Of a DNA stretch of 64,000 nucleotides, positions 2,124-56,791 are shown one piece after another; positions within the stretch are counted from its first letter, which is position 1; the number at the start of each line of letters is the position of its first letter. The notes beneath the pieces were generated by a model, which searched no databases, was not told the DNA's origin, and was given only the letters and a program-made list of their open reading frames with translations. Made by a program: the position numbers and the translations under genes. This DNA comes from a virus, in IMG/VR virus record IMGVR_UViG_3300025769_010106, positions 1 through 64,000 of that record, one strand, 5' to 3'.

Positions 2124-2568
2124 ATTTTTATTGAATTTAAAATGTGGAGCAGGTCCAGATGGATACCCTGATGTAAAGATTGGAATCATTACACATGATC
2201 CATTTGTTGAAAATGTCTATTGGCAGGGAAAAATTGAAGGCGATAAATTAGTTAAGTTCAATGCCGATATTGAAGAGGGCGATTTTGACCTTTTCATTGA
2301 TTTTGAAGGTAATCCTACTGATAAACTAATTGTAGACAAAAGTACAGGAATACCAATTAATGTTGGAGAACTAAGTATAGTTCAAATAGCTATTGATGAA
2401 ATACAACTAGAACACAGTTTTTATACTAAATCTACATTCTACGTAGATGAATCAGAGATATGGGTAGACAATAAGATTCAAACAGAGTGTATTAACTTTG
2501 GAAATAAAGGCGTATGGCGCTTACCTATGTTTATTCCTGTTTACTTATGGCTACTCGAAAATCTATAA
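2110..2568 (+). CDS. Hypothetical protein
   Basis: 152-aa ORF coupled to its neighbours. Confidence 0.6.
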   Translation: MENIEFLLNLKCGAGPDGYPDVKIGIITHDPFVENVYWQGKIEGDKLVKFNADIEEGDFDLFIDFEGNPTDKLIVDKSTGIPINVGELSIVQIAIDEIQLEHSFYTKSTFYVDESEIWVDNKIQTECINFGNKGVWRLPMFIPVYLWLLENL

Positions 2569-2571
2569 ATA
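2564..2571 (+). promoter_or_regulatory. T4-type late promoter TATAAATA
   Basis: Exact T4 late consensus, 4 nt before ATG 2576. Confidence 0.7.
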
Positions 2572-2575
2572 CTGT

Positions 2576-5170
2576 ATGAAAATCTATGAGGCAGAAGGTA
2601 AAACAGCAGTAATAGCTTTTGGTAGGATGAATCCTCCTACTATCGGTCATGCAAAATTAGCTGATAAAATAGCTAGTTTGCCTGGTGATCCGTATATCTT
2701 TCTAAGTCATAGTCAAAAACCCAAGACAGATCCCCTAAGTTTTGAACAAAAAGCAGGATATGCCAAGGCATTCTTCCCTAATGTAACTGTGGGTGATCCT
2801 GAAGTACGCACTGCTATTCAAGCGTTTAGTAAAATTTCAGACATGGGCTACAGCAACCTAATATATGTTGCTGGTAGCGACCGTGTGGACGACTTCCAAA
2901 AACTACTTTCAACATACAATGGTCAGCCTGATAAAGAAGGCAATGTAGCATATAACTTTGACAATATAAAGGTTGTCAGTGCTGGCGCCAGAGATCCTGA
3001 TGCAGAAGGTGCTGAAGGTATGAGTGCTAGTAAAATGAGAGCCGCCGCAGCAAGTGGCGACTTTGAATCGTTTAAGAGTGGTACACCCGATCCCAAACTT
3101 GCTCAGGCAATGTATAGAGATGTTCGTAATGGATTGGGTATGATGGAGAGTCTTGCACGTATCATTGAAGTTGCTACAATGCTAAAAAGTTTAGATGAAG
3201 TTAAACCCATTACAGAGGACGTTAAGAAAGCCTTTGGTGTAGTAGTTGAAGCCTGGAGCGAAAAGTATAAGCGTAGCATAAACTGTAACAATCCAAAAGG
3301 ATTTAGCCAACGTGCTCACTGTGCTGGCCGCAAAAAGAACAAAGGCGTAAACGAAGATGCAACGTCCTCTGATCTTTCCAGCGTATATACACCAAGTATT
3401 CCTGAAATTGCTAAAAAACATAATATATCACTGCAACAGGTTGTTGATCAACTAAAAAAGGGTCTTGCCAAAGAATCAGAACATACTAAAAACTTTGATG
3501 TAGCCTTAGAGATAGCAATGGATCATGTAGCAGAAATTCCTGACTATTATGATAGAATAGAAGATATTGAAGGACCTTATGTAGAGCCAGATCCCAAAGG
3601 CTACCAAAAAGACTTGTTGACTATGCCACAAAGAGCTGTGGTAATAGACACTCCCGGTGAGCTTGACTGGTATAAGATTGGTCAACACTATCCAAATCTA
3701 GGACAAGAAGATCCACATGAATATGGACAAAGCGAAACTGATATGGTTATTGTTCCTCCCAGTGAGGAGATGTTAGATAAACTAACCAAGGATCTATCAC
3801 GCTTGGGTATAAAGTGGAAAGTAATCGGTGGCACAAAAGATCAGCCCGAGATCCACAGTGAAAGCGAAGTAGCAGAAACAATACGTAAGACTGGTAGTCA
3901 GTATACTGTTTACAGTAAAAAGGGTAAGCGCATGGGCACTTATCCAAGTAAAAAACAGGCTAAAGAACGTCTAAGACAGATTGAATACTTCAAGCATGTA
4001 GGCGAATCTCAACTAAATGAACGTGCCACTGATATAGTCTATCACTATACCACAATTGGCCCAGCATTGAACATTTTAAAATCCGGTGAGTTTCAGTTAA
4101 GCAGCGTAGCAGGTAGCGTTGAACAGGATATCAATCCCAAAGGTCATAACTTTTTTCTAAGCACTGCCCGCAGCAAAGGTGGCGAATACCACAGCAGAGT
4201 TGGTGATTCAGCAGTAATGTTTGTACTGAATGGGCGCTGGTTTAGTGATCGTTATCCAGTTAAACCAGTGGACTATTGGGCTGGGTTCTCTATTGCTGGA
4301 CGTAACAAAGAAGCAGAGGATCGTATATTCAGCAAAGATCCTACTATGCCCATAGACCCTGTTACAAGTATACATGTTTTATTAAAAGAACAAAATCCAT
4401 TTGCTAGTGCTAAGACCAGACAGTTTCTAATACGAGCAAAAACACTGGGTATACCAACTTACTTGTATAAAGATGAATCTGCGTGGAGACTACAAAATAC
4501 TGCCAAAGCAGTCAGTGTAGCGCAAATGAAAAGTGAACTAAGTGGCCCAGAAACGTTTCGTACAGGTGGTAGCGGATCACGCTGGTTATTACCCTGGCTC
4601 GAAGTTATATTTGGCAAAACTGACGCTGATCTAGGTAAAAAAGCCAAAGACTTGGTAAGAGGTTTCCGCTATTATCATAACGATGGCGATGACCACGGAC
4701 TAGGAAATGAACTTAGCAATGCTAGAAAGCCTGGCAATTTAGACCGAGAAGATGCGGTTAAGATTCTAAAGTTCATGCGACAAAATCGTATGCTTACACA
4801 CAAAGATCTAGTAAACTATCTAGTAGACAAGTGGAAAGTAAAAGACGAATCCATAAACGAAGCAGGTGTTGGGCGTATTACTAAACAAAACGCAACCAAA
4901 GACGCACCAATTGGTAGCGAGTATGCAAACGTTAAGAAGCTAGGTTTGGGTAGTGGTAAGCCCAAAGAGCTACACGCTAAAGCAAGAAAGAATTCAGATC
5001 CCAATACACTATTCAATCTTGGACTAACAGAAGGACAGTTAAATGAAAAAGGCAGCATCGGCATACCATTGAGCAGTGGTATGACAGTAGTTATTGCGCC
5101 ACACCGTCCACTTAAAGTTAGGAAGAGCAAGAAAAAAGTCAAAATGGTAGGAGCAGGCGGGGAGGAATGA
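2576..5170 (+). CDS. Modular protein: N-terminal cytidyltransferase-like (HIGH) nucleotidyltransferase, several small domains and a putative ADP-ribosyltransferase-like domain
   Basis: FGRMNPPTIGH, VAGSDR and GMSASKMR motifs; later YHYTT..LNILKSG..FLSTAR..EAEDRIF. Start moved to ATG 2576 after the late promoter. Confidence 0.75.
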   Translation: MKIYEAEGKTAVIAFGRMNPPTIGHAKLADKIASLPGDPYIFLSHSQKPKTDPLSFEQKAGYAKAFFPNVTVGDPEVRTAIQAFSKISDMGYSNLIYVAGSDRVDDFQKLLSTYNGQPDKEGNVAYNFDNIKVVSAGARDPDAEGAEGMSASKMRAAAASGDFESFKSGTPDPKLAQAMYRDVRNGLGMMESLARIIEVATMLKSLDEVKPITEDVKKAFGVVVEAWSEKYKRSINCNNPKGFSQRAHCAGRKKNKGVNEDATSSDLSSVYTPSIPEIAKKHNISLQQVVDQLKKGLAKESEHTKNFDVALEIAMDHVAEIPDYYDRIEDIEGPYVEPDPKGYQKDLLTMPQRAVVIDTPGELDWYKIGQHYPNLGQEDPHEYGQSETDMVIVPPSEEMLDKLTKDLSRLGIKWKVIGGTKDQPEIHSESEVAETIRKTGSQYTVYSKKGKRMGTYPSKKQAKERLRQIEYFKHVGESQLNERATDIVYHYTTIGPALNILKSGEFQLSSVAGSVEQDINPKGHNFFLSTARSKGGEYHSRVGDSAVMFVLNGRWFSDRYPVKPVDYWAGFSIAGRNKEAEDRIFSKDPTMPIDPVTSIHVLLKEQNPFASAKTRQFLIRAKTLGIPTYLYKDESAWRLQNTAKAVSVAQMKSELSGPETFRTGGSGSRWLLPWLEVIFGKTDADLGKKAKDLVRGFRYYHNDGDDHGLGNELSNARKPGNLDREDAVKILKFMRQNRMLTHKDLVNYLVDKWKVKDESINEAGVGRITKQNATKDAPIGSEYANVKKLGLGSGKPKELHAKARKNSDPNTLFNLGLTEGQLNEKGSIGIPLSSGMTVVIAPHRPLKVRKSKKKVKMVGAGGEE

Positions 5171-5171
5171 C

Positions 5172-5945
5172 ATGTCAATTACCACTATGGAATTCAAAGA
5201 GCGCAGTTTGCTTTTTGCACAATTAGCAAAGATTGCATACTTAGATGAAAAGGGTGCACGAGCAGCAGCCAAAGTCTTAGGATTCACAACAACAAAATTT
5301 TATGATAGGAATGGTGCACAAGCCTATCGTTTCCAAAACAAAGACGATTGTGTTATTGCATGCAGAGGTACACAGCCTACTGAATTCAATGACATCAAAG
5401 CAGATCTACGTGCACTACCAGTTATAGCTGAAACAGTAAGTAGAGTGCACAAAGGTTTTAAGGTTGAAGTAGATGAACTTTGGCCTATGATACTAGAAGA
5501 CATTAAAAAAGCAAAACAAAAACTATGGTTCTGCGGACACAGTTTGGGTGCAGCAATGGCAACTATTATGGCTAGCCGCTGTCACTTGTACGAAGGTATC
5601 CCAGTTGTAGAAGAGCTATATACATATGGAAGCCCAAGAGTTGGATGGCGTAAATATGTTAACAGTTTAAAAGTTACACACCATCGTTGGGTGAACAATA
5701 ACGATATTGTTACTCGTGTGCCACTAGCAATCATGTTTTACGTACACCATGGCGAGGAACACTATTTGAACACTTGGGGTAATGTACGTGCTCCAACAGG
5801 ATGGCAAAGGACAAAGGACAGATTCCGGGGCATGTGGTTTGGTATTAAGAAGGGACAGATTGATAACTTCTCAGATCACAGCATGGTAAACTACGTGGCT
5901 TATCTAGAAAATTATGCGAATGACTTAGAAACACCACAAATATAA
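5172..5945 (+). CDS. Class 3 lipase (alpha/beta hydrolase)
   Basis: ACRGT, VHKGF, GHSLGAA nucleophile elbow, YTYGSPRVG, NNNDIV, DHSM. Confidence 0.9.
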   Translation: MSITTMEFKERSLLFAQLAKIAYLDEKGARAAAKVLGFTTTKFYDRNGAQAYRFQNKDDCVIACRGTQPTEFNDIKADLRALPVIAETVSRVHKGFKVEVDELWPMILEDIKKAKQKLWFCGHSLGAAMATIMASRCHLYEGIPVVEELYTYGSPRVGWRKYVNSLKVTHHRWVNNNDIVTRVPLAIMFYVHHGEEHYLNTWGNVRAPTGWQRTKDRFRGMWFGIKKGQIDNFSDHSMVNYVAYLENYANDLETPQI

Positions 5946-5971
5946 AGTAATCATCAATAGGGAGAACTAAG

Positions 5972-6298
5972 ATGAAGACCCTAATAAATCCACAACTTAA
6001 TTTAACAGAGGAGAAAGTGTATGATGAACAACTTAAACTATGTATTAAAGAACTTGAACAACTTGTTGAGGATTTTACAGGGAAACCTAAACCAGGTAGT
6101 CGCCCGGGCAGTTTAAAACGCAAGGCAGCGCAGTATCTAGGTAAAGGAGCAGGAGAAGAACTAAGCAGAACAGAACTAAAACAATTACGTGCTAAGGCAA
6201 ACAAAATGAAAAAGAGCTCACGCAAGGACGAACGTGCCCGCGGAGTACAACTAGCACGTCAGGTAAGTTTTGCTTTTAACATGAGAGACAGCAAATGA
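5972..6298 (+). CDS. Small basic protein, putative virion-internal
   Basis: GGAG RBS; acidic N-part ending LVE, then K/R-rich domain. Confidence 0.6.
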   Translation: MKTLINPQLNLTEEKVYDEQLKLCIKELEQLVEDFTGKPKPGSRPGSLKRKAAQYLGKGAGEELSRTELKQLRAKANKMKKSSRKDERARGVQLARQVSFAFNMRDSK

Positions 6299-6531
6299 AA
6301 TTGAACTTTGATATTAAATGTAGTGATTACACAAATACACCAGCGTACAGAGTATTTGTAAATGGTGAACTAATGACTGAACGTGACTTCGTTATACCCA
6401 ATAACCAGTTCAGTCACTATAACTTTACAGGATTTATTGATAGTGAAACAGCAGATATACAAGTTGAGAGCGTTACACCAGGTGTTACATTTACATACGA
6501 CAATGTGAGATTGACCAATGAGAGCGAATGA
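6295..6531 (+). CDS. Hypothetical protein
   Basis: ATGA overlap with upstream gene. Confidence 0.6.
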   Translation: MKLNFDIKCSDYTNTPAYRVFVNGELMTERDFVIPNNQFSHYNFTGFIDSETADIQVESVTPGVTFTYDNVRLTNESE

Positions 6532-6727
6532 ATTTATTAAAGAAACAGCAAGTGCTGGTGCTACCACAAGCGGAAATGTTGCTGTAGTAGTGAATCCAGC
6601 AGTTGCTCGCAGTAAGAAAAAACCAAAGATGCAAAAACCTACAGATAATGCATTAGATGGTGATGTAAGTTTATTTGGTGGCGAAGTAATTAAACGTAAT
6701 TCAAAAAAGCCACTGGCCACATTATAG
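6518..6727 (+). CDS. Small protein with capsid-targeting-like N-terminus
   Basis: MRANEFIKE resembles the T4 internal protein CTS MKTYQEFIAE. Confidence 0.55.
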   Translation: MRANEFIKETASAGATTSGNVAVVVNPAVARSKKKPKMQKPTDNALDGDVSLFGGEVIKRNSKKPLATL

Positions 6728-6735
6728 TATAAATA
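6728..6735 (+). promoter_or_regulatory. T4-type late promoter TATAAATA
   Basis: Exact consensus, inside the palindrome TATAGTAT-AA-ATACTATA (6723-6740). Confidence 0.7.
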
Positions 6736-6762
6736 CTATATTATTTTATTTAGGAAGATATC

Positions 6763-7155
6763 ATGAGTAACGACATAGCAAATACTTATAAAAAACTACA
6801 ACAGATTGCAGAAGGTCACCTAGGTGACATGGCTGATCGTTGTGAGACAGATCATGAAGTGCAAATGGCCCGTGCAGATCTATATAGGATAGGAAAATAT
6901 GCTATTGAGCTTCATGACATGCTACGAAACGTAAGCGAGGAACAGGGCTTAGAGGGTTGGGTACAAGCTAAGATTACCAAGGCAGCAGATTACATTGGCA
7001 GTGTTAAGCATCATCTAGAGTATGAGATGAGCGGAATGAATTCTGACAATCAGGAAGCGATGCCAGCAGATGCATTAGATGCACTTGAGTCTGCAGAGCC
7101 AGTTCAAGAGACCCGCAAACTCAAAACAAAGTATTCAGATTGGAGTAAGAGATGA
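6763..7155 (+). CDS. Hypothetical acidic late protein
   Basis: AGGA RBS; LEGWVQAKITKAADY motif; IAE and LE sites. Confidence 0.65.
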   Translation: MSNDIANTYKKLQQIAEGHLGDMADRCETDHEVQMARADLYRIGKYAIELHDMLRNVSEEQGLEGWVQAKITKAADYIGSVKHHLEYEMSGMNSDNQEAMPADALDALESAEPVQETRKLKTKYSDWSKR

Positions 7156-7760
7156 GCAATTCATTCGCAGACCTAGTAAAAAAGCTCAATGCTATTAGTG
7201 CTGATGAAGATCAAGTATCAGTAACCGGTGAAGAAGTATACAAGCCAGTTGAAGAAGCAGTAGTAGGCACTCGTGAGACAGCCAGTATTCTCAAGGTGTT
7301 TAATGAACTTGAAGAAGCAGCAAAGCCAGACTATATTGATTTAGATGGCGATGGCGATAAAGAAGAATCCATGAAGAAGGCTGCCGCTGACAAGAAAGCC
7401 AAGAAGGAATCTGTAGCTGAAGACAAAGCTAACGAAGATGTGCTAGGTGATATTGCTAGTCGATATCGTGACTTTATGAAGAGTGAAGTAGCACAGGGTA
7501 ATGATCTAACCACAGTTGATAGCGCAGTTAAAGAAGCCACAAGTTCTGCAACAGCAATCGATGATAGTTTTCAAAAGATGTTTAATATGATGGGCCGTCT
7601 TATGAAAGTTACAGCAGAAGGTGCAGTGCTTAGTAAAATGGTAGACCGTGAAGGCGGTGACGCTGCATGGATTGCAGATGCACATCAAAAACTAATTGAA
7701 GCTATGGAAGCTCTAGAAGAAGCACACATGTATAGCAACCCACCAAGGGAAGATGACTAA
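7152..7760 (+). CDS. Acidic late protein with EF-hand-like DLDGDGDKEE motif
   Basis: KPDYIDLDGDGDKEESMKKA; multiple xxE-A sites. Confidence 0.65.
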   Translation: MSNSFADLVKKLNAISADEDQVSVTGEEVYKPVEEAVVGTRETASILKVFNELEEAAKPDYIDLDGDGDKEESMKKAAADKKAKKESVAEDKANEDVLGDIASRYRDFMKSEVAQGNDLTTVDSAVKEATSSATAIDDSFQKMFNMMGRLMKVTAEGAVLSKMVDREGGDAAWIADAHQKLIEAMEALEEAHMYSNPPREDD

Positions 7761-7765
7761 TTATT

Positions 7766-7957
7766 ATGCGTTCCTCAGAATTTATTTCAAAAGCAATTAC
7801 TGAGGCTGAGTTTGATGAAGCAGCTGGCGAAAAGGATGCCTGCTATCATAAAGTAAAATCACGTTACAAAGTTTGGCCAAGCGCATATGCTAGCGGTGCA
7901 CTTGTAAAGTGTCGCAAGGTTGGCGCAGCTAACTGGGGCAATAAGAGTAAAAAGTAA
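7766..7957 (+). CDS. Small basic Cys-containing protein with CTS-like leader
   Basis: MRSSEFISKAITEAEFDE then KDACYHKVKSRYKVWPSAYASGALVKCRK. Confidence 0.65.
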   Translation: MRSSEFISKAITEAEFDEAAGEKDACYHKVKSRYKVWPSAYASGALVKCRKVGAANWGNKSKK

Positions 7958-8214
7958 TGCGGGTCCACGAGTTTACAACCAACGAAGATCTACGCAAGTG
8001 GTTTAAGGACAAATGGGTTCGTTTCGGTCCTGATGGTAAAATTCGTGGCGACTGTGCTAGGGATAGTGACAGTGAAGGCAAGCCCAAGTGTTTACCACAA
8101 AGTAAAGCACATGCACTAGGCAAAAAGAAACGTGCTACAGCAGCAAGTAGAAAGCGTAGAGAAGATCCCAAAAAGAACAGACGCGGTAAAGCCAAGAATG
8201 TGAGAACAAAATGA
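7957..8214 (+). CDS. Small basic Cys-containing protein with CTS-like leader
   Basis: MRVHEFTTNE then DLRKWFKDKWV..C..KPKCLP; TAATG coupling. Confidence 0.65.
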   Translation: MRVHEFTTNEDLRKWFKDKWVRFGPDGKIRGDCARDSDSEGKPKCLPQSKAHALGKKKRATAASRKRREDPKKNRRGKAKNVRTK

Positions 8215-8948
8215 AAGCAAGTGATCTAAAAAGAAATCCAGTTGAAGAAGCAATTAAGGAACATATTGCTCGTGGCATTCCTTTTAGTGAATGCATGTTC
8301 CGTCCTGGTAGTGAAGCATTTACAGAGTTTTATACTCGTGTGCGTAAGATGCGTGAAAGTCTTGACCTAGATTGGCAGGATCAGGAGTTACTTGATACAG
8401 ACATCGGTGAATGTATTATGGTAGAGGGCGAGCGTGTTCCTCTTGATGTTCCTATAGAAGACCTTGCTGAAGGAATGCCAGCCAGTGTTATAAAAAGCAA
8501 ACAACGCAATGCTGAAATGAGTGACGAAGATTTTGCTGAAAGATACAAAGACAAGAGCGATGATGACCTACGCTCAATGGCATGGCGTCATGGATATGGC
8601 AAAGGTAGTAACTATTATGTCAATAAGAAAAAACGTGGACTAGACGAAGAAGTAGAGCTTGACGAAGCAGAGTATCAAGGACGCAAAGTTAAACTGAATT
8701 CACCCAAACGTGGCGGTCCTAAAAAGTTCTATGTATATGTAAAGAATCCAAAGACTGGTCGTGTTAAGAAGATCAGTTGGGGCGATACATCAGGACTAAG
8801 CGTAAAGAGTGGCGATAGGGACAGAGTTCGTTCATTTGTAGCACGTCACAAGTGTAAACAAAAGAACGACAAGATGAAAGCAGGTTACTGGGCATGCCGC
8901 ACACCACGATATAAAGCTCTTGGTGTCAAAGGCGGCCAGTGGTGGTAA
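8211..8948 (+). CDS. Modular late protein with basic C-terminal domain
   Basis: Segments delimited by VEE, LAE and LDE; C-terminal AEYQGRKVKLN..KKFYVYV..ARHKC..GYWAC. Confidence 0.65.
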   Translation: MKASDLKRNPVEEAIKEHIARGIPFSECMFRPGSEAFTEFYTRVRKMRESLDLDWQDQELLDTDIGECIMVEGERVPLDVPIEDLAEGMPASVIKSKQRNAEMSDEDFAERYKDKSDDDLRSMAWRHGYGKGSNYYVNKKKRGLDEEVELDEAEYQGRKVKLNSPKRGGPKKFYVYVKNPKTGRVKKISWGDTSGLSVKSGDRDRVRSFVARHKCKQKNDKMKAGYWACRTPRYKALGVKGGQWW

Positions 8949-8995
8949 ACACTTTTTAATTATAAGTATTTTTTAAACTATATGATGGGAGAACT

Positions 8996-9928
8996 ATGCC
9001 GTTTAATATCCCGACGATTGATATCGGACAATCTTTTTCTAGTGATAGTGTATATGCTGAATCTCAGGCGAACTTACTTAGAGAAATACTGATTGAGTAC
9101 GGATTTTTTTCTGTAAACAATCATAATATCGATACTAAAATAATAAAGACTATTGAATCAAAAGCTAAAGAGTTTTTTAGTTGTAGTCCAGAGCAAAAAA
9201 ATTTATGCATAGGTTATTTAGAATCTACTGGATCCACAAGATTTATACCTGGCAATAGTCATATGCAAAACCTTAGAATAGTGCCAGATCATTTTTTTTC
9301 TAATAATCATAAATTATTGCAGTATGAAAATAGAAGGTTGGAATCAGTTGGTAAAACTATAGATGATTACATGCTTTTACCCAAAGACGATATTGTTGAC
9401 GGATTTGAAAGTGCTACAAGATCATATATTAATGCAATGAGCAGTGTTGCAAATAAACTACTTCCGCTATATGCAAGAGCACTAAACTTAGAATATAACT
9501 ATTTCAATAATTTATTCACTGATCCTTATTGGATTTTCTACTGTAAATATTATCCTCCATATTCAACCTTAGAAAATCAATATGGGTTAGCTGAGCATAG
9601 TGATTTAGATTTTATTACTATTTTACCATTATCAAGTGTGCCAGGCTTAGAGATTTTAGTGGAAAATTCTTGGCAACCTGTAGGTTATAAAGAAAATAGT
9701 ATTTTAGTTTTTACAGGTGATTTCTTACATCGTTGGTCTAACGGTCTTTGCAAAGCAGCAGTACATCGTGTTACAATTCCAGAAACAGATAGGTATTCTT
9801 TTCCTTTTCATTATAATCCTAATTTTGATGTGACTGATGAATCTTTACCAAGTTGTATAAATGAAAACCCTATTGTCGATTCTCCTCTTACGCTATTTGA
9901 TTTTTTACATAAAAGAACATTGTTATGA
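8996..9928 (+). CDS. 2OG-Fe(II) dioxygenase, isopenicillin-N-synthase-like family
   Basis: IPTIDI, GFFSVNNH, YYPP, HSD facial triad, HRV, RYS. Confidence 0.88.
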   Translation: MPFNIPTIDIGQSFSSDSVYAESQANLLREILIEYGFFSVNNHNIDTKIIKTIESKAKEFFSCSPEQKNLCIGYLESTGSTRFIPGNSHMQNLRIVPDHFFSNNHKLLQYENRRLESVGKTIDDYMLLPKDDIVDGFESATRSYINAMSSVANKLLPLYARALNLEYNYFNNLFTDPYWIFYCKYYPPYSTLENQYGLAEHSDLDFITILPLSSVPGLEILVENSWQPVGYKENSILVFTGDFLHRWSNGLCKAAVHRVTIPETDRYSFPFHYNPNFDVTDESLPSCINENPIVDSPLTLFDFLHKRTLL

Positions 9929-10188
9929 AACCATATACTGAAATTCGCAGTAGTAATACAATTACACGAACTTTTAGTGTAGACTGTAATGAAAGTGAAC
10001 TTGTTTGGCATAGAGATCATACTGACAGATATGTAGAAATATTAGAGGGTAATGGTTGGCGTTTTCAAATGGACAACGATTTACCCATAATTCTACAGCC
10101 TGGCGATACTCTTGCTATACCCAAAAACACATATCATCGCATACTAAAGGGAACAACCGACCTTGTTGTAGAGATTGTAGAGCGTTAG
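9925..10188 (+). CDS. Cupin-fold protein
   Basis: WHRD...LEG.GW...GD...IP...YHR. Confidence 0.7.
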   Translation: MKPYTEIRSSNTITRTFSVDCNESELVWHRDHTDRYVEILEGNGWRFQMDNDLPIILQPGDTLAIPKNTYHRILKGTTDLVVEIVER

Positions 10189-10202
10189 ATAAATACACTG
10201 TT

Positions 10203-10532
10203 ATGAACGCACAAGATATTAGAAATACAATTACTATGCTCGAACGCACTAACAGCGATTTTCAATATGTCGCTGGTAGAGACTTTAGACTAGTTACTAA
10301 AGTTGAAAAGAACGGCGAAGTCTATGCTCTCGGCTCACTAGACCATGACTATGATGATAATACAAAGTCAGATTATAGCGTATATAAGCTAGAACGTGAA
10401 GATGGATTTGAATACAATAATAAGTTTTACCCTCAAGAATTTTATAGTGAAGTGGAATCACTTAAACTTAGTCCCTATGTCAAACCACAAGTAGCTCTTG
10501 ATTCATTTAAATCTTGGTTATCAAAAGTATAG
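10203..10532 (+). CDS. Hypothetical late protein
   Basis: ATG 10203 follows GATAAATA (10188-10195); leader MNAQDIRNTITMLE. Confidence 0.6.
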   Translation: MNAQDIRNTITMLERTNSDFQYVAGRDFRLVTKVEKNGEVYALGSLDHDYDDNTKSDYSVYKLEREDGFEYNNKFYPQEFYSEVESLKLSPYVKPQVALDSFKSWLSKV

Positions 10533-10548
10533 TACGAGAGTAAATGTA

Positions 10549-11031
10549 ATGCTAACACAAAATATTCCATTTCTGAAGTGGTGGATACAACTCACTATAA
10601 CCTTTTTTGGTGCACTCATAGCCTGGAAATTGGGTTGGTGGGAAGCATTATGGTATGCTGATATAACAAAAATAAGCATAGCAATCATTGTTGTCTTTAT
10701 TGTGACTACTGGCTTAACTGGCTATATTAGTAAGGTTAATAGTAAGGAAATACAAAACTATAGCAACTACGTATGGTTTGGTAGTGAAGCTATGATTACT
10801 TTAGGTATGATTGGCACTGTAGCAGGATTTCTACTAATGCTTAATACAACTTTCAGTGGCTTAGATGTTAAGAATGTTGTAAATGTCCAGGAAGCTATTG
10901 CGGACATGGCAGTGGGAATGAGCACTGCACTCAGCACAACTCTTATTGGATTGATTTGCAGCATACTAACAAAACTGCAAATGGTTATTTTAGAGAATAG
11001 CTGGGACAATGGCGAACAAACCAAGATATAA
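10549..11031 (+). CDS. MotA/TolQ/ExbB proton-channel-like membrane protein
   Basis: LGMIGTVAGF and GMSTALSTTLIGL helices. Confidence 0.8.
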   Translation: MLTQNIPFLKWWIQLTITFFGALIAWKLGWWEALWYADITKISIAIIVVFIVTTGLTGYISKVNSKEIQNYSNYVWFGSEAMITLGMIGTVAGFLLMLNTTFSGLDVKNVVNVQEAIADMAVGMSTALSTTLIGLICSILTKLQMVILENSWDNGEQTKI

Positions 11032-12434: not shown

Positions 12435-12655
12435 CAGTACGCAAACCCCATCAATGGCTTGCCTGGTTAGGCACGGCGGGCTTGTTGATTGCAGCAACAC
12501 TTGCTGCGTTCAATTTCTATCCCTTTTATATTTTTGCATTTATAATAGGAAATAGTTTATGGGCCATTGCAGGTTGGCTGTGGAAAGAGCAATCTTTGGT
12601 TGTTCTCAATGTAGTAATTACGCTAATATATGTGATAGGATTGTTTTTTAAGTAA
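12431..12655 (+). CDS. Small membrane protein
   Basis: Three hydrophobic segments. Confidence 0.65.
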   Translation: MTVRKPHQWLAWLGTAGLLIAATLAAFNFYPFYIFAFIIGNSLWAIAGWLWKEQSLVVLNVVITLIYVIGLFFK

Positions 12656-15330
12656 TGTACATAGACGCATATTTTGATAGAGAACACGACAGGATCAACG
12701 TTGTAGAACGTGTGGAAGGGCGTAGGGAATACAGAGAGTTCCCTGCTAACTACGTGTTCTATTACAGTGATGCTCGAGGTAAGTTCCGTACAATCTACGG
12801 AAACCCTGTAAGCCGTTTCAGTACACGTAATGGTAAGGAGTTCCAGAGAGAACTAAAGATTCATGGCAAACATGGTCTATGGGAAAGCGATATCAATCCA
12901 GTATTTCGCTGTTTAAGTGAACACTATATAGGCATTGACGCACCTAAACTACAGACATGCTTCTTTGATATTGAGGTGGACTTTGATCCTGTTCGTGGTT
13001 ACAGTAATACTGATGATCCATTTAATGCTATTACAAGTATCAGTATGTATTTGGATTGGCAAAACAAGCTAATCACTCTTGCTGTTCCACCTAAGAGTTT
13101 GAGTATGGAAAGTGCACAGGATCTTGTGCGTGACTTTGAAAATACAGTACTGTTCCAAAGAGAAACAGACATGCTGGAGGCATTTCTGGATCTAATAGAA
13201 GATGCAGACATACTCAGCGGTTGGAACTCAGAGGGATATGATATTCCCTACACTGTTAATCGTATAACTCGTGTGTTGAGTAAGGATGACACACGCAAGT
13301 TCTGTTTATGGGGACAGTATCCTAGAAAGCGTACTTTTGAACGTTTCGGCAAGGAAGAGTTTACTTATGATCTAATTGGCAGACAGCACTTAGACTATAT
13401 GCAGTTGTATCGCAAATATACATACCATGAAATGCATAGTTATAGTTTGGATGCTATTGGTGAGTATGAGTTAGGTGAGCGCAAAGTTGCCTATGAGGGT
13501 ACGCTAGACCAGCTTTACAACCAGGACTTTTATACATTTATTGACTATAACAGACAGGACACCATGCTCCTGTATAAGCTGGATACCAAACTAAAGTTTA
13601 TTGATCTTAGTAACGAGCTTGCTCACGCTAACACTGTTTTACTTCCTACTACAATGGGCGCGGTTGCTGTTACAGAACAGGCAATTATTAACGAAGCACA
13701 TGAACAGGGTTTGATTGTTCCCAATAAAAAGGACGCAGGTGAAAAGCATACAGCAGCAGGTGCATATGTTGCAGATCCTAAAAAAGGTATTCACGAATGG
13801 ATTGGTTCAATTGACTTAAACAGTCTATATCCTAGTGCAATTCGTGCTCTTAACATGGCACCAGAAACTATCGTGGGCCAACTACGTCCAATAATGACAG
13901 ACAATGAGTTAGGCAGACGTATAGCTGAAGATGGTGCTTCATTCGCTGGTAGTTGGGAAAACATGTTTGGTACGCTAGAGTATCAGGCAGTAATGGCTGG
14001 CGAGCGTGGAACGGAAATTACTATTGATTGGGAAACCGGCGGATCGGATACTCTTAGTGCTGCTGAAGTTTGGCGTTTAATCTTTGACAGTAATAATCCC
14101 TGGATACTTACTGCCAATGGTACAATCTTTACATACGAGAAAAAGGGTGTAATCCCAGCACTGCTAGAACGCTGGTATGCTGAACGTAAAGAACTGCAAG
14201 CGAAAATGCGTGAAGCAACTGGCGAGGAACGTGCGTTCTGGGACAAGCGGCAGCTAGTTAAGAAGATTAACCTTAACAGTTTGTATGGCGCTATTCTTAA
14301 TCCATACTGTCGTTTCTTTGACCGTCGTATTGGACAGTCCACTACACTCACAGGCAGATGTATTGCAAAGCATATGAGTGCAAAGACTAATGAGCTGCTA
14401 ACTGGCAAGTATGATCACGTGGGTGACACAATCATATATGGTGACACTGACTCTGTATATTTTAGTGCTTGGCCAGTAGTCCGTGAGCAAGTTGAGCGTG
14501 GCGAAATGCGCTGGGGCAAGGATGAATGTGTAGCATTATACGATACCATTGCAGATGAAGTGAACACTACATTTCCAGCATTCATGGAAAAAGACTTCCA
14601 CTGTCCGCGTAAAAATGGCGAGATCATTGCTGCCGGCAGAGAAATCATTGGCAGCCGCGGCATCTTTATTACAAAGAAGCGTTATGCAGTACTAGTGTAT
14701 GATCAGGAAGGTTATCGTACAGACAAAGATGGCAAGCCTGGCAAAGTAAAGGCTATGGGACTGGATCTCAAGCGTAGTGATACACCTAAGGTTATGCAGG
14801 ACTTTATGAGTGAGCTACTTGAAGAAGTACTGGATGGCAAGGGGTCCGAACATGCCGTGGAACGTATTCTAGAATTCAAACGTGATTTTGCTAATCTCCC
14901 AGGCTGGGAAAAGGGCACACCCAAGCGTGTTAACAACCTAACCAAGTTTACTAACCTAGAGTGGGGCAAAGAAGACGGCAAAGAAGTATACAAGGGCAAA
15001 GCAAACATGCCCGGACACGTCAGGGCCGCTATTAACTGGAACCGTCTAAAGAAAATGCATGGCGACAACTACAGCATGAATATTGTGGACGGTATGAAGA
15101 CCATTGTATGCAAACTCAAAGACAATCCCATGGGTTACACCAGCGTTGGCTATCCAGTGGACGAACTAAACCTACCTAACTGGTTTAAAGAACTTCCGTT
15201 TAATCATAAGGAAATGGAAGCAACTATTGTAGATCAAAAGCTAGATAACTTGTTGGGAGAGCTTGGCTGGAACTTAACACAAAAGACACAAATACATAGC
15301 ACGTTTGAAAGTTTATTTACATTTGAGTAA
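12655..15330 (+). CDS. polB: Family B DNA polymerase (T4 gp43-like)
   Basis: FDIE exonuclease, SGWNSEGYD, DLNSLYPS, KINLNSLYG, YGDTDS, KKRY. Confidence 0.97.
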   Translation: MYIDAYFDREHDRINVVERVEGRREYREFPANYVFYYSDARGKFRTIYGNPVSRFSTRNGKEFQRELKIHGKHGLWESDINPVFRCLSEHYIGIDAPKLQTCFFDIEVDFDPVRGYSNTDDPFNAITSISMYLDWQNKLITLAVPPKSLSMESAQDLVRDFENTVLFQRETDMLEAFLDLIEDADILSGWNSEGYDIPYTVNRITRVLSKDDTRKFCLWGQYPRKRTFERFGKEEFTYDLIGRQHLDYMQLYRKYTYHEMHSYSLDAIGEYELGERKVAYEGTLDQLYNQDFYTFIDYNRQDTMLLYKLDTKLKFIDLSNELAHANTVLLPTTMGAVAVTEQAIINEAHEQGLIVPNKKDAGEKHTAAGAYVADPKKGIHEWIGSIDLNSLYPSAIRALNMAPETIVGQLRPIMTDNELGRRIAEDGASFAGSWENMFGTLEYQAVMAGERGTEITIDWETGGSDTLSAAEVWRLIFDSNNPWILTANGTIFTYEKKGVIPALLERWYAERKELQAKMREATGEERAFWDKRQLVKKINLNSLYGAILNPYCRFFDRRIGQSTTLTGRCIAKHMSAKTNELLTGKYDHVGDTIIYGDTDSVYFSAWPVVREQVERGEMRWGKDECVALYDTIADEVNTTFPAFMEKDFHCPRKNGEIIAAGREIIGSRGIFITKKRYAVLVYDQEGYRTDKDGKPGKVKAMGLDLKRSDTPKVMQDFMSELLEEVLDGKGSEHAVERILEFKRDFANLPGWEKGTPKRVNNLTKFTNLEWGKEDGKEVYKGKANMPGHVRAAINWNRLKKMHGDNYSMNIVDGMKTIVCKLKDNPMGYTSVGYPVDELNLPNWFKELPFNHKEMEATIVDQKLDNLLGELGWNLTQKTQIHSTFESLFTFE

Positions 15331-51794: not shown

Positions 51795-52088
51795 TTAAAA
51801 TATACCTATCATTAGTTTAGTATCTTCCGGTATAAGATCAGGTCCCCACTGTGGTTCCCATACAAGTTCACGTTCTACTTCTGTCACACCGTCAACATTT
51901 TTGCAGGCTTGGTATATGTCTTCGCATATTTGATCGGCAAATGGACACATAAAACTTGTTAAGCTATGCTTTACATGAACTTTAGTTTTTTCTATTTCTA
52001 TACTATATATCAAACCCAAATCGTAAACATTAACGCTTATCTCTGGATCATAGACAAGACGTAGTGCTTCTATTATCTTATCTTTCAT
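51795..52088 (-). CDS. DUF59/SufT-like Fe-S cluster assembly factor
   Basis: VYDPEI.VNVYDLGLIY, LTS..CP, WEPQW. Confidence 0.88.
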   Translation of the reverse strand: MKDKIIEALRLVYDPEISVNVYDLGLIYSIEIEKTKVHVKHSLTSFMCPFADQICEDIYQACKNVDGVTEVERELVWEPQWGPDLIPEDTKLMIGIF

Positions 52089-53566
52089 GAGCAGACCTTC
52101 ACACCATACTGCTTTTCAAAACGATCTGCGTCAGCACGATCATTTACCATGGGCTCGCCACGGATGTTTAGGCTAGTGTTTAATAGCATTGGGCAGTCTG
52201 TCATTACATACCACTTTTCAAGTAGGTCCCTTGCGCCAGTACGATCATCCTTGCCTACTGTTTGTACACGACTGGTGTTGTCATAATGTACTATTGCAGG
52301 GAATAGATCTGGACGCTTACATTTATAGGTAAACTGCATATAGGGACTCGTATCCAGTCTGGGCATATCAAAATAATCGTGTGCATGCTCCTCTAATATC
52401 ATAGGAGCAAAAGGTCTGAACTTTTGTCTGCGTTTGATCTCGTTAACACGGTCTTTTATATCATCGCCGCGTGGGTCAGCAAGTAGACTGCGATTGCCCA
52501 GAGCACGTGGGCCAAACTCTGCACGACCACTTGCAACTCCTACAATACCTTCACGCTGTAGTTCGCCAATAATTTCTTCACTGGGATATTCACCGGGAAT
52601 GTTTGTTCCCAGATATGGCCCTTGCCAGTTTAAACGTTTGCCATATGCAAGAGCAGCAGCACCTAAACTACTACCACAGTCGCCAGGGTTTGGCATAACC
52701 CATAGTCTATTCCAGATATCACGAATCGCACTATTTGCAACACAGTTAAGAGCAACACCCCCCATGAACACGCAATCATCAATATCAGTATTTGTAATAC
52801 TTAATTGATGCATTGCCGTTCTGAGCATGCCTTCAGTGATCATTTGTGCAGCTCTGGCTATTTCTTCGATTGTATATTCACTGGCGAAACTGTCTTCTAC
52901 ACCAACGTGAAAATTTCGTTTAAAAATCTGTTTATGTTCATTATCTAAACTACCAGTAACAACCTCGCGATATGCATTTGGAGATCCATACGCTGCCATA
53001 CCCATGAGAATATATTCTTCTTCCATGGGTTTTAAACCACAACGCTTGGTCATTGCGCTGTAAAACAATCCTAAACTATGAGGGTAGCGACGTGTATAAA
53101 TCCTTTTATATTGTGCCCGACCTTGGTCATCGTATTCAGCACGATATGTTGACCAACAGTCCCATTCACCAATAGCATCTATTACTACCACAACAGCACG
53201 ATCAAAGGGTGATGTTTGAAACCCTGCCGCAGCATGACTTAAATGATGTCCTGAGTATTTGTCTACTTTAAGTCCGTATGGTTTTAATTGTTTAGTAGGA
53301 CTAGGGTCACCAAACACTTTACGCCACTCACCACTATATAGTTGACGTGTTTTTTTCAGCCATGGACGTTCATACCAAGCAACTAAATCAGGCGTACCAT
53401 AACCGAGTGCCTCAGCCATAATGCCTTCATTTAGTGTAGCATCATTTTTAACTTTACTATAGCGTTCGCTGTGACCTGCAAAAAGTATATTGCCTCTACT
53501 GTCCACGACACTGACACCAGCATCATGAAAGCCTGCACTCACGCCCATGTATGTTTTAAGTTTCAT
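52085..53566 (-). CDS. NodU/CmcH-family carbamoyltransferase
   Basis: HDAG, HHLSHA, DAIGE, GGVALNC, EFGPRALGNRS, RPFAP, LNTSLN. Confidence 0.93.
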   Translation of the reverse strand: MKLKTYMGVSAGFHDAGVSVVDSRGNILFAGHSERYSKVKNDATLNEGIMAEALGYGTPDLVAWYERPWLKKTRQLYSGEWRKVFGDPSPTKQLKPYGLKVDKYSGHHLSHAAAGFQTSPFDRAVVVVIDAIGEWDCWSTYRAEYDDQGRAQYKRIYTRRYPHSLGLFYSAMTKRCGLKPMEEEYILMGMAAYGSPNAYREVVTGSLDNEHKQIFKRNFHVGVEDSFASEYTIEEIARAAQMITEGMLRTAMHQLSITNTDIDDCVFMGGVALNCVANSAIRDIWNRLWVMPNPGDCGSSLGAAALAYGKRLNWQGPYLGTNIPGEYPSEEIIGELQREGIVGVASGRAEFGPRALGNRSLLADPRGDDIKDRVNEIKRRQKFRPFAPMILEEHAHDYFDMPRLDTSPYMQFTYKCKRPDLFPAIVHYDNTSRVQTVGKDDRTGARDLLEKWYVMTDCPMLLNTSLNIRGEPMVNDRADADRFEKQYGVKVCS

Positions 53567-56229: not shown

Positions 56230-56791
56230 CTGCTAATGGAAATTCAAATTTCCCATCTGCTGCTTTCCTAAACAAGTCCGATACCCACTGATGCCATTCT
56301 GGTGCATAATGATGTCCCAATTTACTGATTGGCCATCGGTCGGGATGGTCGATATAGGGTATCAGATCATAAAGAGTCATATCAATCAAGCGACATTGAT
56401 TCTGCTCACAAATTGATTTCAAATCTATTAGATTCCTAGAAAAGTTTTTCCTACACCAGTCATCGTCGTGTGTTTCCATAAAATAGATTCGATTACTGCA
56501 TGTAGGAAGACTCTGATAAAACTTTCCATCTTTTTGATATTCAAATCTACTCCAATCTGGCCAAAGACAGTAGACTATGTTTGGTTTATGTTCCGGTACG
56601 AGATCTTGTGCCAGACGAACAACCTGATCACCGCTGGCTGATCCAACCCCAAAATTCTTAGCCCCTAACAGATAAGGCCAGGTTTCGTTGTTTTCTACTC
56701 CAACACCCCAGGTATGGCTGCAACCAAATGCTATAGAATCCGAATTGGTGATTTTATTCCTAAATTTCAGTGGATTTTCACTCATAGCCAA
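56222..56791 (-). CDS. SGNH-hydrolase-like protein
   Basis: AFGCSHTWGVG, NFGVG, C-terminal GHH. Confidence 0.6.
   Translation of the reverse strand: MAMSENPLKFRNKITNSDSIAFGCSHTWGVGVENNETWPYLLGAKNFGVGSASGDQVVRLAQDLVPEHKPNIVYCLWPDWSRFEYQKDGKFYQSLPTCSNRIYFMETHDDDWCRKNFSRNLIDLKSICEQNQCRLIDMTLYDLIPYIDHPDRWPISKLGHHYAPEWHQWVSDLFRKAADGKFEFPLADE

What the first reader, a model, noticed from the sequence alone, without database searches (positions are those of the whole stretch)
2576..10532. Cluster of putative capsid-packaged, protease-processed proteins with CTS-like leaders
Seen: late-promoter genes start with short leaders ending in E (MKIYE, MRANEFIKE, MRSSEFISKAITE, MRVHEFTTNE, MKASDLKRNPVEE, MNAQDIRNTITMLE). 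Internal domain boundaries repeatedly fall at (L/I/V)xE: ITE, VVE, VNE, VAE, LNE, INE, LTE, LAE, LDE. The delimited segments are often very basic or Cys-containing. Known: T4 gp21 cleaves after (I/L)xE, and T4 internal proteins carry the CTS MKTYQEFIAE and are injected with the DNA. Inference: a mix-and-match polyprotein system that loads many small effectors or DNA-condensing peptides into the head.
Basis: partly seen in the sequence, partly recalled or inferred. Interest (0 to 1): 0.8.

Follow-up and report, generated by a model that had tools for sequence, protein, structure and literature searches.

The report
Capsid-targeted, protease-jointed phage cargo proteins
An uncultured giant T4-like marine phage puts short T4-style "load me into the head" tags on a cluster of late genes and strings unrelated small proteins and enzymes into an 864-residue chain joined at the cutting motif of T4-type head proteases, so it probably packs a swappable protein kit into its capsid; neither packing nor cutting has been measured.

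Summary
The quoted leaders and (L/I/V)xE boundaries are all present, and their positions are far from chance. Comparison with about 1,300 ORFs from related viral contigs and with two global protein searches shows three things.

- A 9-13 residue leader, M-[KR]-x-x-[ED]-[FILV]..h-x-E, precedes at least nine unrelated modules.
- The same h-x-E lies just upstream of those modules when they sit inside fusion proteins: 45% of 207 junctions against a 2.3% background, and 59 of 61 for the ART-fold domain.
- Near-identical relatives of the 864-aa ORF differ by whole cassettes exchanged at these joints.

T4's own sites have the same form (gp23 LTE|A; IPII/IPIII MKTYQEFIAE|A). Related jumbo contigs carry a gp21-family protease. 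Two podoviruses that lack it carry the same modules without leader or joint. NMNAT-like homologues with CTS-like N-termini were found by mass spectrometry in cyanophage virions.

This contig lacks the head genes. The real cluster ends at 8948, not 10532. Three leaders (MKIYE, MKASDL.., MNAQDI..) are weak.

The scan has found the same kind of system on other T4-like phage DNA. I found no paper that describes it.

The parts
2565..2572 (+). T4-type late promoter motif (T)ATAAATA, a few bases before the start codon at 2576
   Evidence: ATAAATA occurs 17 times on the contig against about 56 expected, mostly just upstream of co-oriented starts.
2576..5170 (+). 864-aa mosaic 'polyprotein'
   Evidence: Modules were defined by homology. 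Relatives P0128 and P0129 differ by whole cassettes at the joints.
2576..2590 (+). Short leader MKIYE|A, a truncated form of MLLRELYE|AE found in homologues
2591..3217 (+). NMNAT/cytidylyltransferase-like domain (aa 6-214), ending ..PITE214
   Evidence: phrog_3041 at 2.7e-49 and phrog_395 at 8.6e-36. Pfam CTP_transf_like scores 18.1 bits, below its cut-off of 21. 44% identity to the virion-detected S-SCSM1 NMNAT.
3218..3250 (+). Degenerate internal leader/linker DVKKAFGVVVE225
   Evidence: It aligns with the N-terminal leader MRAGEFITE of a stand-alone WSEKYK gene.
3251..3355 (+). Basic two-Cys mini-module AWSEKYKRSINCNNPKGFSQRAHCAGRKK.. (aa 226-260, net charge +7)
3356..3535 (+). DUF5661 module (aa 261-320), ending HVAE320
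   Evidence: Pfam PF18905 at 2.2e-12.
3536..3877 (+). Acidic module (aa 321-434, net charge -14), ending EVAE434
   Evidence: Absent from relative P0129.
3878..4021 (+). Basic module TIRKTGSQYTVYSKKGKRMG.. (aa 435-482, net charge +8), ending QLNE482
   Evidence: phrog_3684 and phrog_2859.
4022..4861 (+). 280-aa domain: ADP-ribosyltransferase fold (first ~160 aa) plus a helical part, ending SINE762
   Evidence: 1,314 relatives. h-x-E lies before the domain in 59 of 61. AF2 pLDDT 93. Foldseek DarT E 2.6e-4. VIA Z 11.4 for Tpt1 and 10.3 for DarT. Invariant S47, R50, E97, E99, R101.
4862..5032 (+). AGVGRITK module (aa 763-819, net charge +5), ending GLTE819
   Evidence: The stand-alone 66-aa gene in G002 begins MKISQIISE|AGVGKITK.
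5048..5167 (+). C-terminal basic tail (aa 825-864, net charge +7) after LNE824
   Evidence: Relative P0128 has a ~115-aa HExxH cassette inserted just before it.
5172..5945 (+). Class-3 lipase/esterase; membership of the cargo set is uncertain
   Evidence: Pfam Lipase_3 at 1.2e-17. The N-terminus MSIxxMNFKE is conserved but has Q/D variants at the last position.
5972..6298 (+). Basic 108-aa ORF with MKTLINPQLNLTE13; no homologues in my set
6518..6727 (+). Leader MRANEFIKE| followed by a copy of the MCP N-arm motif (TASAGATTSGNVAVV) and a basic tail
   Evidence: The MCPs of related phages read YLSE|QATAGATSAGNVATL and YIAE|SATAGATQAGN. S-CREM2 gp160, which carries such a motif, was detected in virions.
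6729..6736 (+). Second late promoter motif TATAAATA, 28 nt before the ATG at 6763
6763..7155 (+). Helical DHEVQMA-module protein with a 17-aa N-terminal piece ending IAE17|G
   Evidence: Homologues begin MREKEITE|GLGELA.. or MKEKELRNE|GLADLA.., and internal copies are preceded by TNE|G or IAE|G.
7152..7760 (+). Acidic 202-aa protein (net charge -15); its N-terminus MSNSFADLVKKL resembles that of ORF 6763
7766..7957 (+). 63-aa gene: leader MRSSEFISKAITE13| followed by a four-helix two-Cys basic module
   Evidence: 2,980 relatives. E13 invariant and T12 nearly so. Leader unstructured and helices from residue 13 in the AF2 model. 92% identical to an internal part of S-RIM8 gp114.
7957..8214 (+). 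85-aa gene: leader MRVHEFTTNE10| followed by the DLRKWF two-Cys module (net charge +18)
8211..8948 (+). 245-aa protein. The N-terminal leader is doubtful. The internal joint ELDE152|AEYQGRKV precedes a C-terminal two-Cys module.
   Evidence: phrog_7595. LDE|A, LFE|A and VDE|A precede this module in 16 contexts. The same module ends Melnitz gp18.

Best explanation
Genes 2576-8948 form two late operons of a jumbo T4-like phage. They encode head-internal cargo.

Proposed mechanism:
1. Each product, or each module of the 864-aa chain, is preceded by a short acidic-hydrophobic peptide ending in hydrophobic-x-Glu.
2. By analogy with the T4 capsid targeting sequence, the N-terminal peptide docks the protein on the scaffolding core of the prohead.
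3. The gp21-family prohead protease then cuts after each Glu. This removes the leaders and cuts the polyprotein into its parts: an NMNAT-like enzyme, a DarT/Tpt1-like ADP-ribosyltransferase-fold domain, DUF5661, acidic spacers and several small basic two-Cys modules.
4. The pieces stay in the head with the DNA and probably enter the host with it.

Shown: the leaders, the joints, their position-specific conservation across unrelated modules, cassette exchange at the joints, and the link with phages that have the protease.

Inferred: docking, cleavage, packaging and ejection in this phage.
For: 1. Leader independent of the module. In related loci, 113 of 1,334 unique ORFs start M[KR]xx[EDQ][FILVM]. 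These leaders stand in front of at least nine unrelated modules, among them a P-loop and a HAD-like enzyme.

2. T4 read from its own record shows the same form: IPII/IPIII MKTYQEFIAE|A, gp23 ..FLTE65|AEIGG, Alt MELITELFDE. In the T4 CTS, targeting depends on residues 4 and 7 and processing on residues 8 and 10 (PMC9026906).

3. Joints. [LIVMF]xE lies exactly at 93 of 207 projected internal junctions against a 2.3% background. E is at P1 in 59 of 61 starts of the ART-fold domain from an independent global search, and the other two are off by one residue. The P1 Glu is invariant in the 63-aa family.

4. Exact equivalence between fused and free forms. Polyprotein INE762|AGVGRITK matches the stand-alone MKISQIISE|AGVGKITK. 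VVE225|AWSEKYK matches MRAGEFITE|AWSEKYK. LNE482|RATD matches MRANEFLIE|RATD.

5. Relatives 96-99% identical in the shared parts differ by whole cassettes swapped at VNE260|, LNE482| and LTE819|.

6. Related contigs (DNA polymerase 59-60% identical, same synteny) carry the PF03420 protease, a scaffold protein, and an MCP with YLSE|QATAGAT.

7. Natural control. The complete podovirus genomes CRP-7 and C75C1 lack PF03420. Their copies of the modules have no leader and no h-x-E.

8. Virion proteomes. S-SCSM1 NMNAT (MKSFLQFLKE|A), its neighbours and the mosaic gp029 are virion proteins, and so is the S-CREM2 cytidylyltransferase (MKNFSSFLTE|A) (PMC9602691, PMC10665884).

9. Codons at the conserved leader positions vary, so the signal acts at the protein level.
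Against: - No protease, scaffold or MCP gene lies on this 108-kb contig, which CheckV rates 31% complete. The link to a gp21-type enzyme therefore rests on relatives.
- The polyprotein's own leader has only 5 residues (MKIYE), shorter than any tested CTS.
- The count of h-x-E motifs is not above shuffled expectation, and several sites lie inside the NMNAT-like domain.
- The joint before the AI(K/R)EHI module of ORF 8211 is not conserved in relatives.
- The lipase N-terminus has Q or D where E would be needed.
- The cyanophage mosaic proteins found in virions have no N-terminal leader.
- The modules also exist in phages without the protease, so they do not need cleavage to function.
- No peptide-level proteomics was available.
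Confidence: 0.7

Rival explanations
1. The modules and leaders are real but are not cut or packaged. Under this reading h-x-E is a shared N-cap or linker that travels with each recombining cassette. The N-terminal peptide has another role, for example translation efficiency on near-leaderless late mRNAs, or binding of a common partner in the infected cell.
For: The promoter at 2565 abuts the start codon. The overall motif count is not enriched. The modules work without leader or joint in podoviruses. In the 63-aa family the residue before Glu is nearly always Thr, which is tighter than a protease that accepts any residue there would require.
Against: The same motif marks the MCP maturation site in T4 and, by alignment, in relatives. 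The leader and joint are missing exactly where the protease is missing. Codons vary. Homologues have been found in virions (PMC9602691, PMC10665884). The AF2 model leaves the leader unstructured.
Confidence: 0.13
2. The proteins are prohead core or scaffold-type components like T4 gp22, gp67 and gp68. They enter the prohead and are cut, but the fragments are expelled or serve only in head-size determination and DNA condensation. They are not delivered as effectors.
For: The acidic pieces (net charge -14, -15) resemble core proteins. In G001 an 80-aa ORF beginning MKLMEF.. sits in the gp67 position next to the portal gene. ORF 6518 copies the MCP N-arm. In cyanomyoviruses and podoviruses the small basic modules lie next to the terminase genes.
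Against: The chain holds folded enzymes (NMNAT-like, ART fold, pLDDT 93), and these have no obvious scaffolding role. NMNAT-like proteins are still present in mature virions (PMC9602691, PMC10665884).
Confidence: 0.12
3. Chance or composition: Glu-rich and Ile/Leu-rich phage proteins give many h-x-E triplets, and N-terminal MK/MR is common.
For: The overall density of the motif in the polyprotein equals the shuffled expectation.
Against: Enrichment at junctions is about twenty-fold, 59 of 61 domain starts follow Glu in an independent sample, the leader genes are clustered, and cassettes are exchanged at the joints.
Confidence: 0.02

Closest known systems
Phage T4 internal proteins IPI, IPII, IPIII with the capsid targeting sequence (CTS), processed by the prohead protease gp21
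   Same: A roughly 10-residue N-terminal peptide (T4 MKTYQEFIAE|A, here MRANEFIKE|T, MRSSEFISKAITE|A) ending in hydrophobic-x-Glu. It stands on otherwise unrelated, often basic small proteins of a T4-like phage. Late promoter motifs are present.
   Different: Here one consensus leader serves dozens of module families across thousands of uncultured marine phages. Modules are also chained into polyproteins with the same motif at every joint, and cassettes are exchanged at these joints. None of the modules is homologous to a T4 IP. Nothing has been tested experimentally.
T4 Alt, a packaged and gp21-processed ADP-ribosyltransferase
   Same: An ART-fold enzyme with a cleavable N-terminal peptide, presumably carried in the head.
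   Different: The fold here is closest to DarT/Tpt1, which act on nucleic acids (Z 10-11), and not to Alt. It is one module of a chain that also holds an NMNAT-like enzyme. No sequence similarity to Alt was seen.
Inner-body and ejection proteins of giant phages phiKZ, 201phi2-1 and SPN3US, cut by a gp21-related protease at (S/A/G)-x-E
   Same: Jumbo phages load many proteins into the head and process them after Glu, often at several sites (PMC5694885).
   Different: Those propeptides are mostly over 100 residues long and the proteins are paralogous families. They are not short universal leaders on shuffled mini-modules, and that lineage is not T4-like in its replication genes.
Virion-associated NMNAT/cytidylyltransferase of T4-like cyanophages (S-SCSM1, S-CBWM1, S-CREM2)
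   Same: Homologous to the first domain of the 864-aa ORF (44% identity). N-termini MKSFLQFLKE|A and MKNFSSFLTE|A. Detected in virions by mass spectrometry.
   Different: The papers treat them as carried enzymes and do not mention a targeting sequence or protease sites (no 'cleav' or 'internal' in PMC10665884). In the cyanophages the enzyme is not fused to an ART-fold domain.

Membership tests
T4-type CTS / internal head protein system | N-terminal propeptide of about 10-20 residues with hydrophobic residues at the targeting positions | tested here: met
   MRANEFIKE, MRSSEFISKAITE and MRVHEFTTNE against T4 MKTYQEFIAE. The consensus comes from 113 ORFs. The polyprotein's own leader (MKIYE) is short.
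T4-type CTS / internal head protein system | Propeptide ends in the protease motif (L/I)-x-Glu; Asp is not tolerated at the last position | tested here: met
   IKE9, ITE13; TNE10 is atypical at P3. The P1 Glu is invariant in the 63-aa family. 62 of 113 leaders have h-x-E ending at residue 8-9.
T4-type CTS / internal head protein system | The same phage encodes a gp21-family (Peptidase_S77) prohead protease and a scaffolding core | tested here: inconclusive
   Not on this 31%-complete contig. Present on the related contigs G001, G002 and G004, which carry the same leader clusters.
T4-type CTS / internal head protein system | Late expression | tested here: inconclusive
   NATAAATA motifs at 2565 and 6729 head the two operons. 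The motif is depleted elsewhere on the contig. There are no expression data.
T4-type CTS / internal head protein system | Protein present in mature heads in processed form | not testable with these tools
   Only homologues in S-SCSM1 and S-CREM2 were found in virions (PMC9602691, PMC10665884). No peptide-level data are held.
T4-type CTS / internal head protein system | Sequence homology of the mature proteins to T4 IPI, IPII, IPIII | not tested
   No direct comparison with the T4 IPs was run. Pfam and PHROGs gave these ORFs no internal-protein annotation. In T4 relatives the IPs themselves are not conserved, only the CTS (PMC9026906).
ADP-ribosyltransferase superfamily (DarT/Tpt1-like) | ART fold | tested here: met
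   AF2 pLDDT 93. Foldseek DarT 7omw E 2.6e-4, probability 1.0. VIA Z 11.4, rmsd 2.3 A over 109 residues (Tpt1 7yw4), and Z 10.3, rmsd 3.5 A over 142 residues (DarT 7yk3_C).
ADP-ribosyltransferase superfamily (DarT/Tpt1-like) | Catalytic motif residues (H/R ... S-T-x ... E-x-E or equivalent) in the NAD pocket | tested here: inconclusive
   H8 is nearly invariant; S47, R50, E97, E99 and R101 are invariant in 54 sequences. Their placement in the pocket was not checked. No Pfam or PDB sequence hit.
Nucleotidyltransferase (NMNAT/cytidylyltransferase-like) | Rossmann-type domain with the (H/T)xGH motif and a family-profile match | tested here: met
   GRMNPPTIGH near the N-terminus. phrog_3041 at 2.7e-49. 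The Pfam CTP_transf_like score of 18.1 is below its cut-off of 21. The substrate is unknown.

The most novel reading that the evidence does not exclude
Marine T4-like phages, including jumbo ones, may share a general 'cargo grammar'. Any protein or module preceded by the 9-residue tag or by an h-x-E joint is loaded into the prohead and released by the head protease, so recombination at the joints lets phages re-equip the capsid at will.

In this phage the kit would deliver a ready-made NAD-centred pair with the DNA: an NMNAT-like enzyme and a DarT/Tpt1-like ART-fold enzyme. These could modify host nucleic acids or counter NAD-depleting defences before any phage gene is expressed. Protamine-like two-Cys basic peptides would travel with the genome.
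Probability: 0.3. Interest if true: 0.85.

Novelty: new variant of a known kind. Interest (0 to 1): 0.75.

Why it matters
The T4 CTS is known as a property of a few internal proteins of coliphages. This result would widen that picture in four ways.

- If the reading holds, the same principle organises a large, fast-evolving and almost wholly unannotated share of marine T4-like phage genomes. There are thousands of clusters for single modules (2,980 for the 63-aa module and 1,314 for the ART-fold domain).
- It would explain why NMNAT-like enzymes keep turning up in cyanophage virion proteomes.
- It gives a simple sequence rule for predicting which phage proteins are injected with the DNA, and these are prime candidates for counter-defence.
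- It offers natural, short, cleavable tags for loading foreign proteins into the capsids of non-coli phages.

The idea can be tested directly on cultured relatives such as Melnitz, S-SCSM1 and S-CREM2.

Tried and rejected
- Nucleotide search of 2400-10600 against 50,697 phage records found no match.
- Pfam gave nothing for the small ORFs.
- The PDB sequence search with the 280-aa domain found nothing.
- Foldseek with the 63-aa model found nothing.
- The supplement of PMC9602691 holds no peptide lists, so I could not check for semi-tryptic peptides.
- Overall enrichment of [LIVMF]xE in the polyprotein: rejected (16 against 13.9 +/- 3.2).
- Lipase as tagged cargo: left open, because its N-terminus varies at the would-be P1.
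- MKASDLKRNPVEE as a leader: doubtful, because the near-identical relative L007 has MRFTEFDLTPAQR before the same module and internal copies lack Glu there.
- MNAQDIRNTITMLE: no homologue and no support.
- ORFs 8996-10188 as cargo: rejected (2OG-Fe(II) oxygenase and cupin).
- A nucleotide-level signal as the cause of the leader: rejected on codon diversity.
- Literature: five searches for CTS-like leaders or polyproteins in marine or cyano T4-like phages returned only T4 and giant-phage papers.

Full report
**What the window is.** The window is the first 64 kb of a 108,479-base IMG/VR virus record that CheckV rates 31% complete, which implies a jumbo phage. It encodes a T4-type DNA polymerase at 12655-15330 (phrog_262, 3.9e-195). 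Elsewhere on the contig my reading of ORF N-termini suggests gp55-, gp46- and gp47-like genes, and there are giant structural ORFs. The heptamer ATAAATA occurs 17 times against about 56 expected from composition. Most copies lie just upstream of a co-oriented start codon, so it behaves as a T4-type late promoter. No gp21 protease (PF03420) or gp23 (PF07068) gene lies on the contig.

**The observation.** Genes 2576-8948 are tightly packed on the + strand behind promoter motifs at 2565 and 6729. A third motif at 10189 precedes the unsupported ORF 10203-10532. ORFs 8996-9928 and 9925-10188 are a 2OG-Fe(II) oxygenase and a cupin, so the cluster ends at 8948. Only three of 121 ORFs on the contig begin MRxxEF, and they are neighbours.

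**The modules are a huge shuffled family.**
- The 63-aa ORF 7766-7957 has 2,980 relatives of similar length. It is up to 92% identical to an internal piece of cyanomyovirus S-RIM8 gp114, a 592-aa mosaic encoded between the terS and terL genes. It is also similar to part of S-SCSM1 gp029, which is annotated 'virion protein'.
- The 85-aa ORF, the DHEVQMA protein and the C-terminus of ORF 8211 recur in these mosaics and in Melnitz gp18.
- Eighty related viral loci were fetched. In them, 109 of 884 ORFs begin M[KR]xx[EDQ][FILVM], and 108 of these lie on the strand of the module gene.
- The same 9-residue leader precedes quite unrelated proteins: MRASEIITE|KCWKGY.., MRATEFITE|KWSKKYK.., MKVAEIVNE|DLRKWF.., MKINEV..E|QATAGAT.., a P-loop protein and a HAD-like protein.
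- After removing duplicates, 113 of 1,334 ORFs carry the leader. In 62 of them [LIVMF]xE ends at residue 8 or 9, against 49 of 1,221 other ORFs.
- Codons at the conserved positions vary freely, so the signal is in the protein.

**The joints.** For eight module families, the residues just before the module are h-x-E both after N-terminal leaders and inside fusion proteins.

I made a blind projection. The first 40 mature residues of 82 leader-bearing ORFs were BLASTed against all ORFs. This gave 207 distinct internal junctions:
- 93 have [LIVMF]xE exactly at the projected site, against a background of 2.3%.
- 110 have Glu at P1, against 8.1%.
- Most of the rest are displaced by one to three residues.

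An independent global search with residues 483-762 of the polyprotein found 1,314 relatives. In the best 61, Glu precedes the domain in 59 and is one residue off in the other two. This holds whether the domain follows a 9-12 residue leader (MRANEFLIE|RATD.., MRANEFITE|SLS..) or lies deep inside a long protein (QLNE|, ILDE|, LTE|, INE|). One protein keeps a whole internal leader, NNMRANEFISE|GASS.

Three joints of the window's polyprotein are exact counterparts of leader/mature junctions in stand-alone genes: E225|A, E482|R and E762|A.

Two relatives that are 96-99% identical in the shared parts differ by whole cassettes. P0129 replaces residues 261 to about 470, between VNE260| and QLNE482|. 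P0128 inserts about 115 residues with an HELVH motif between GL(T/A)E| and LQE|RASIGIPL.

The total number of h-x-E triplets in the polyprotein is not raised (16 against 13.9 +/- 3.2). It is the placement that is special.

**Link to the T4 mechanism.** Read from the T4 record, IPII and IPIII begin MKTYQEFIAE|A. Alt begins MELITELFDE. The 65-residue propeptide of gp23 ends ..GSFLTE|AEIGG. Reviews state the following (PMC9026906; PMC5694885):
- All T4 internal head proteins reach the core through the CTS.
- Targeting depends mainly on residues 4 and 7, and processing on residues 8 and 10.
- gp21 cuts after Glu.

Contigs G001 (196 kb) and G002 (151 kb) are relatives of this phage. Their DNA polymerase is 59-60% identical, and in G001 the leader cluster lies next to the polymerase gene, as here. 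They, and also G004, carry a PF03420 protease. G001 has portal, protease, scaffold and MCP genes in T4 order. Its MCP reads ..KKYLSE|QATAGATSAGNVATLNRV.. where T4 gp23 aligns a few residues after its cleavage site. The G002 MCP reads ..YIAE|SATAGATQAGN.

ORF 6518-6727 of the window is a leader followed by a copy of this N-arm motif (MRANEFIKE|TASAGATTSGNVAVV). In G001 the copy matches that phage's own MCP closely.

**A natural control.** The complete podovirus genomes CRP-7 (58 kb) and C75C1 (39 kb) have no PF03420 match. Their copies of the same modules are small stand-alone genes beside the terminase or head genes. These copies have neither leader nor h-x-E: MATTKTKKDACYKKV.., MAVRKTAKGAKLKQWFKEDW.., MGELKKWRDQNWVRIG... 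S-SCSM1, Melnitz and S-RIM8 do have the protease.

**Published virion evidence.** In S-SCSM1, 45 proteins were found in CsCl-purified virions by mass spectrometry. Among them is the NMNAT (ORF91), and the authors note that NMNAT-like proteins recur in cyanophage virion proteomes (PMC9602691). That NMNAT is 44% identical to the first domain of the window's polyprotein and begins MKSFLQFLKE|A.

It lies in a run of five adjacent 'virion proteins'. Four of them have h-x-E at residues 10-13: MDSKTFNSLSE|A, MATVAETLLALNE|I, MKSFLQFLKE|A and MTHLNDISKVYME|K. The S-SCSM1 MCP has ..GSFLAE|A. The mosaic gp029 has VSE|G, MTE|G, FNE|D and VSE|G before its modules.

In S-CREM2 the virion-detected cytidylyltransferase begins MKNFSSFLTE|A behind an ATAAATA motif. 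The virion-detected gp160 carries an MCP-N-arm-like stretch (PMC10665884). Neither paper mentions a targeting sequence or cleavage.

The cultured OM43 phage Melnitz has a similar run of genes starting MQGFKTFLSE|A, (M)INFSKYITE|D, MKKFSELTSELIE|R and MKKFSEIIE|A.

**What the cargo is.**
- Residues 6-214 are NMNAT/cytidylyltransferase-like.
- Residues 483-762 fold with pLDDT 93. The first 160 residues or so have an ADP-ribosyltransferase fold closest to Tpt1 and DarT: Foldseek E 2.6e-4; VIA Z 11.4 with rmsd 2.3 A over 109 residues, and Z 10.3 with rmsd 3.5 A over 142 residues.
- In that domain H8 is nearly invariant and S47, R50, E97, E99 and R101 are invariant. This agrees with the sibling note e1-5970293. 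Activity and target are unknown.
- The small modules are basic (net charge +5 to +18) and four carry exactly two Cys. Others are acidic.
- The 63-aa module is predicted as four short helices with an unstructured leader. It has no PDB match.

**Caveats.**
- The head genes of this phage are not on the contig.
- The polyprotein's leader has only five residues. It is clearly a shortened form of MLLRELYE|AE found in homologues.
- The N-terminus of ORF 8211 and the lipase N-terminus are not convincing tags.
- The cyanophage mosaics lack an N-terminal tag.
- No cut has been observed in any of these phages.

**Novelty and standing.** I found no paper describing CTS-like leaders or protease-jointed polyproteins in marine T4-like phages. 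The T4 review only remarks that the CTS may be a general way for T4-like phages to load various proteins. Earlier notes of this scan report the same kind of system on other T4-like phage genomes. I read them after my own analysis and they are not independent evidence.

I file the finding as a new variant of a known kind, with confidence 0.7 that these are capsid-targeted, protease-processed cargo proteins.

Noticed in passing
window 6518-6727; G001 160775-161059; L116 43121-43306 (S-SCSM1 gp275); L117 7343-8236 (S-CREM2 gp160): Small proteins carry a copy of the MCP N-arm just after its presumed maturation site (QATAGATAAGNIAALN against the G001 MCP's own QATAGATSAGNVATLN). The S-CREM2 example was detected in virions. 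It may act as a capsid-interior anchor or as a protease-substrate mimic.
   Followed up: partly
L113 2224-2870 (CRP-7 gp63-65); L114 1954-2731 (C75C1); L002 4744-6519 (S-RIM8 gp114): The same small basic two-Cys modules sit next to terminase or head-closure genes in podoviruses and between the terS and terL genes in cyanomyoviruses. This hints at a role tied to DNA packaging.
   Followed up: partly
protein P0128 (996-aa relative of ORF 2576-5170): A near-identical relative carries an extra ~115-residue cassette with an HELVH (HExxH) motif, inserted between two h-x-E joints near the C-terminus.
   Followed up: no
whole contig; window 2565, 6729, 10189, 15340, 33993, 39190, 44472: ATAAATA is three-fold depleted (17 against about 56 expected) and sits mostly within 60 nt upstream of co-oriented starts. 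At 2565 and 15340 it almost abuts the ATG, which raises the question of near-leaderless late mRNAs (sibling note e1-5970294).
   Followed up: partly
window 54952-62025 (- strand): Five of the six consecutive ORFs in this stretch give radical-SAM matches in PHROGs. A Nol-like carbamoyltransferase lies nearby at 52085-53566.
   Followed up: no
L005 2350-3597 (Melnitz gp16): This leader-bearing gene (INFSKYITE|D..) contains a VKWDG motif reminiscent of nucleotidyl-transferring ligases. A ligase-like enzyme may be part of the cargo cluster in Melnitz.
   Followed up: no
window 6763-7155 and 7152-7760: Two adjacent ORFs share a different N-terminus (MSNDIANTYKKLQQIAE and MSNSFADLVKKLNAISA). This may be a second leader type.
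   Followed up: no
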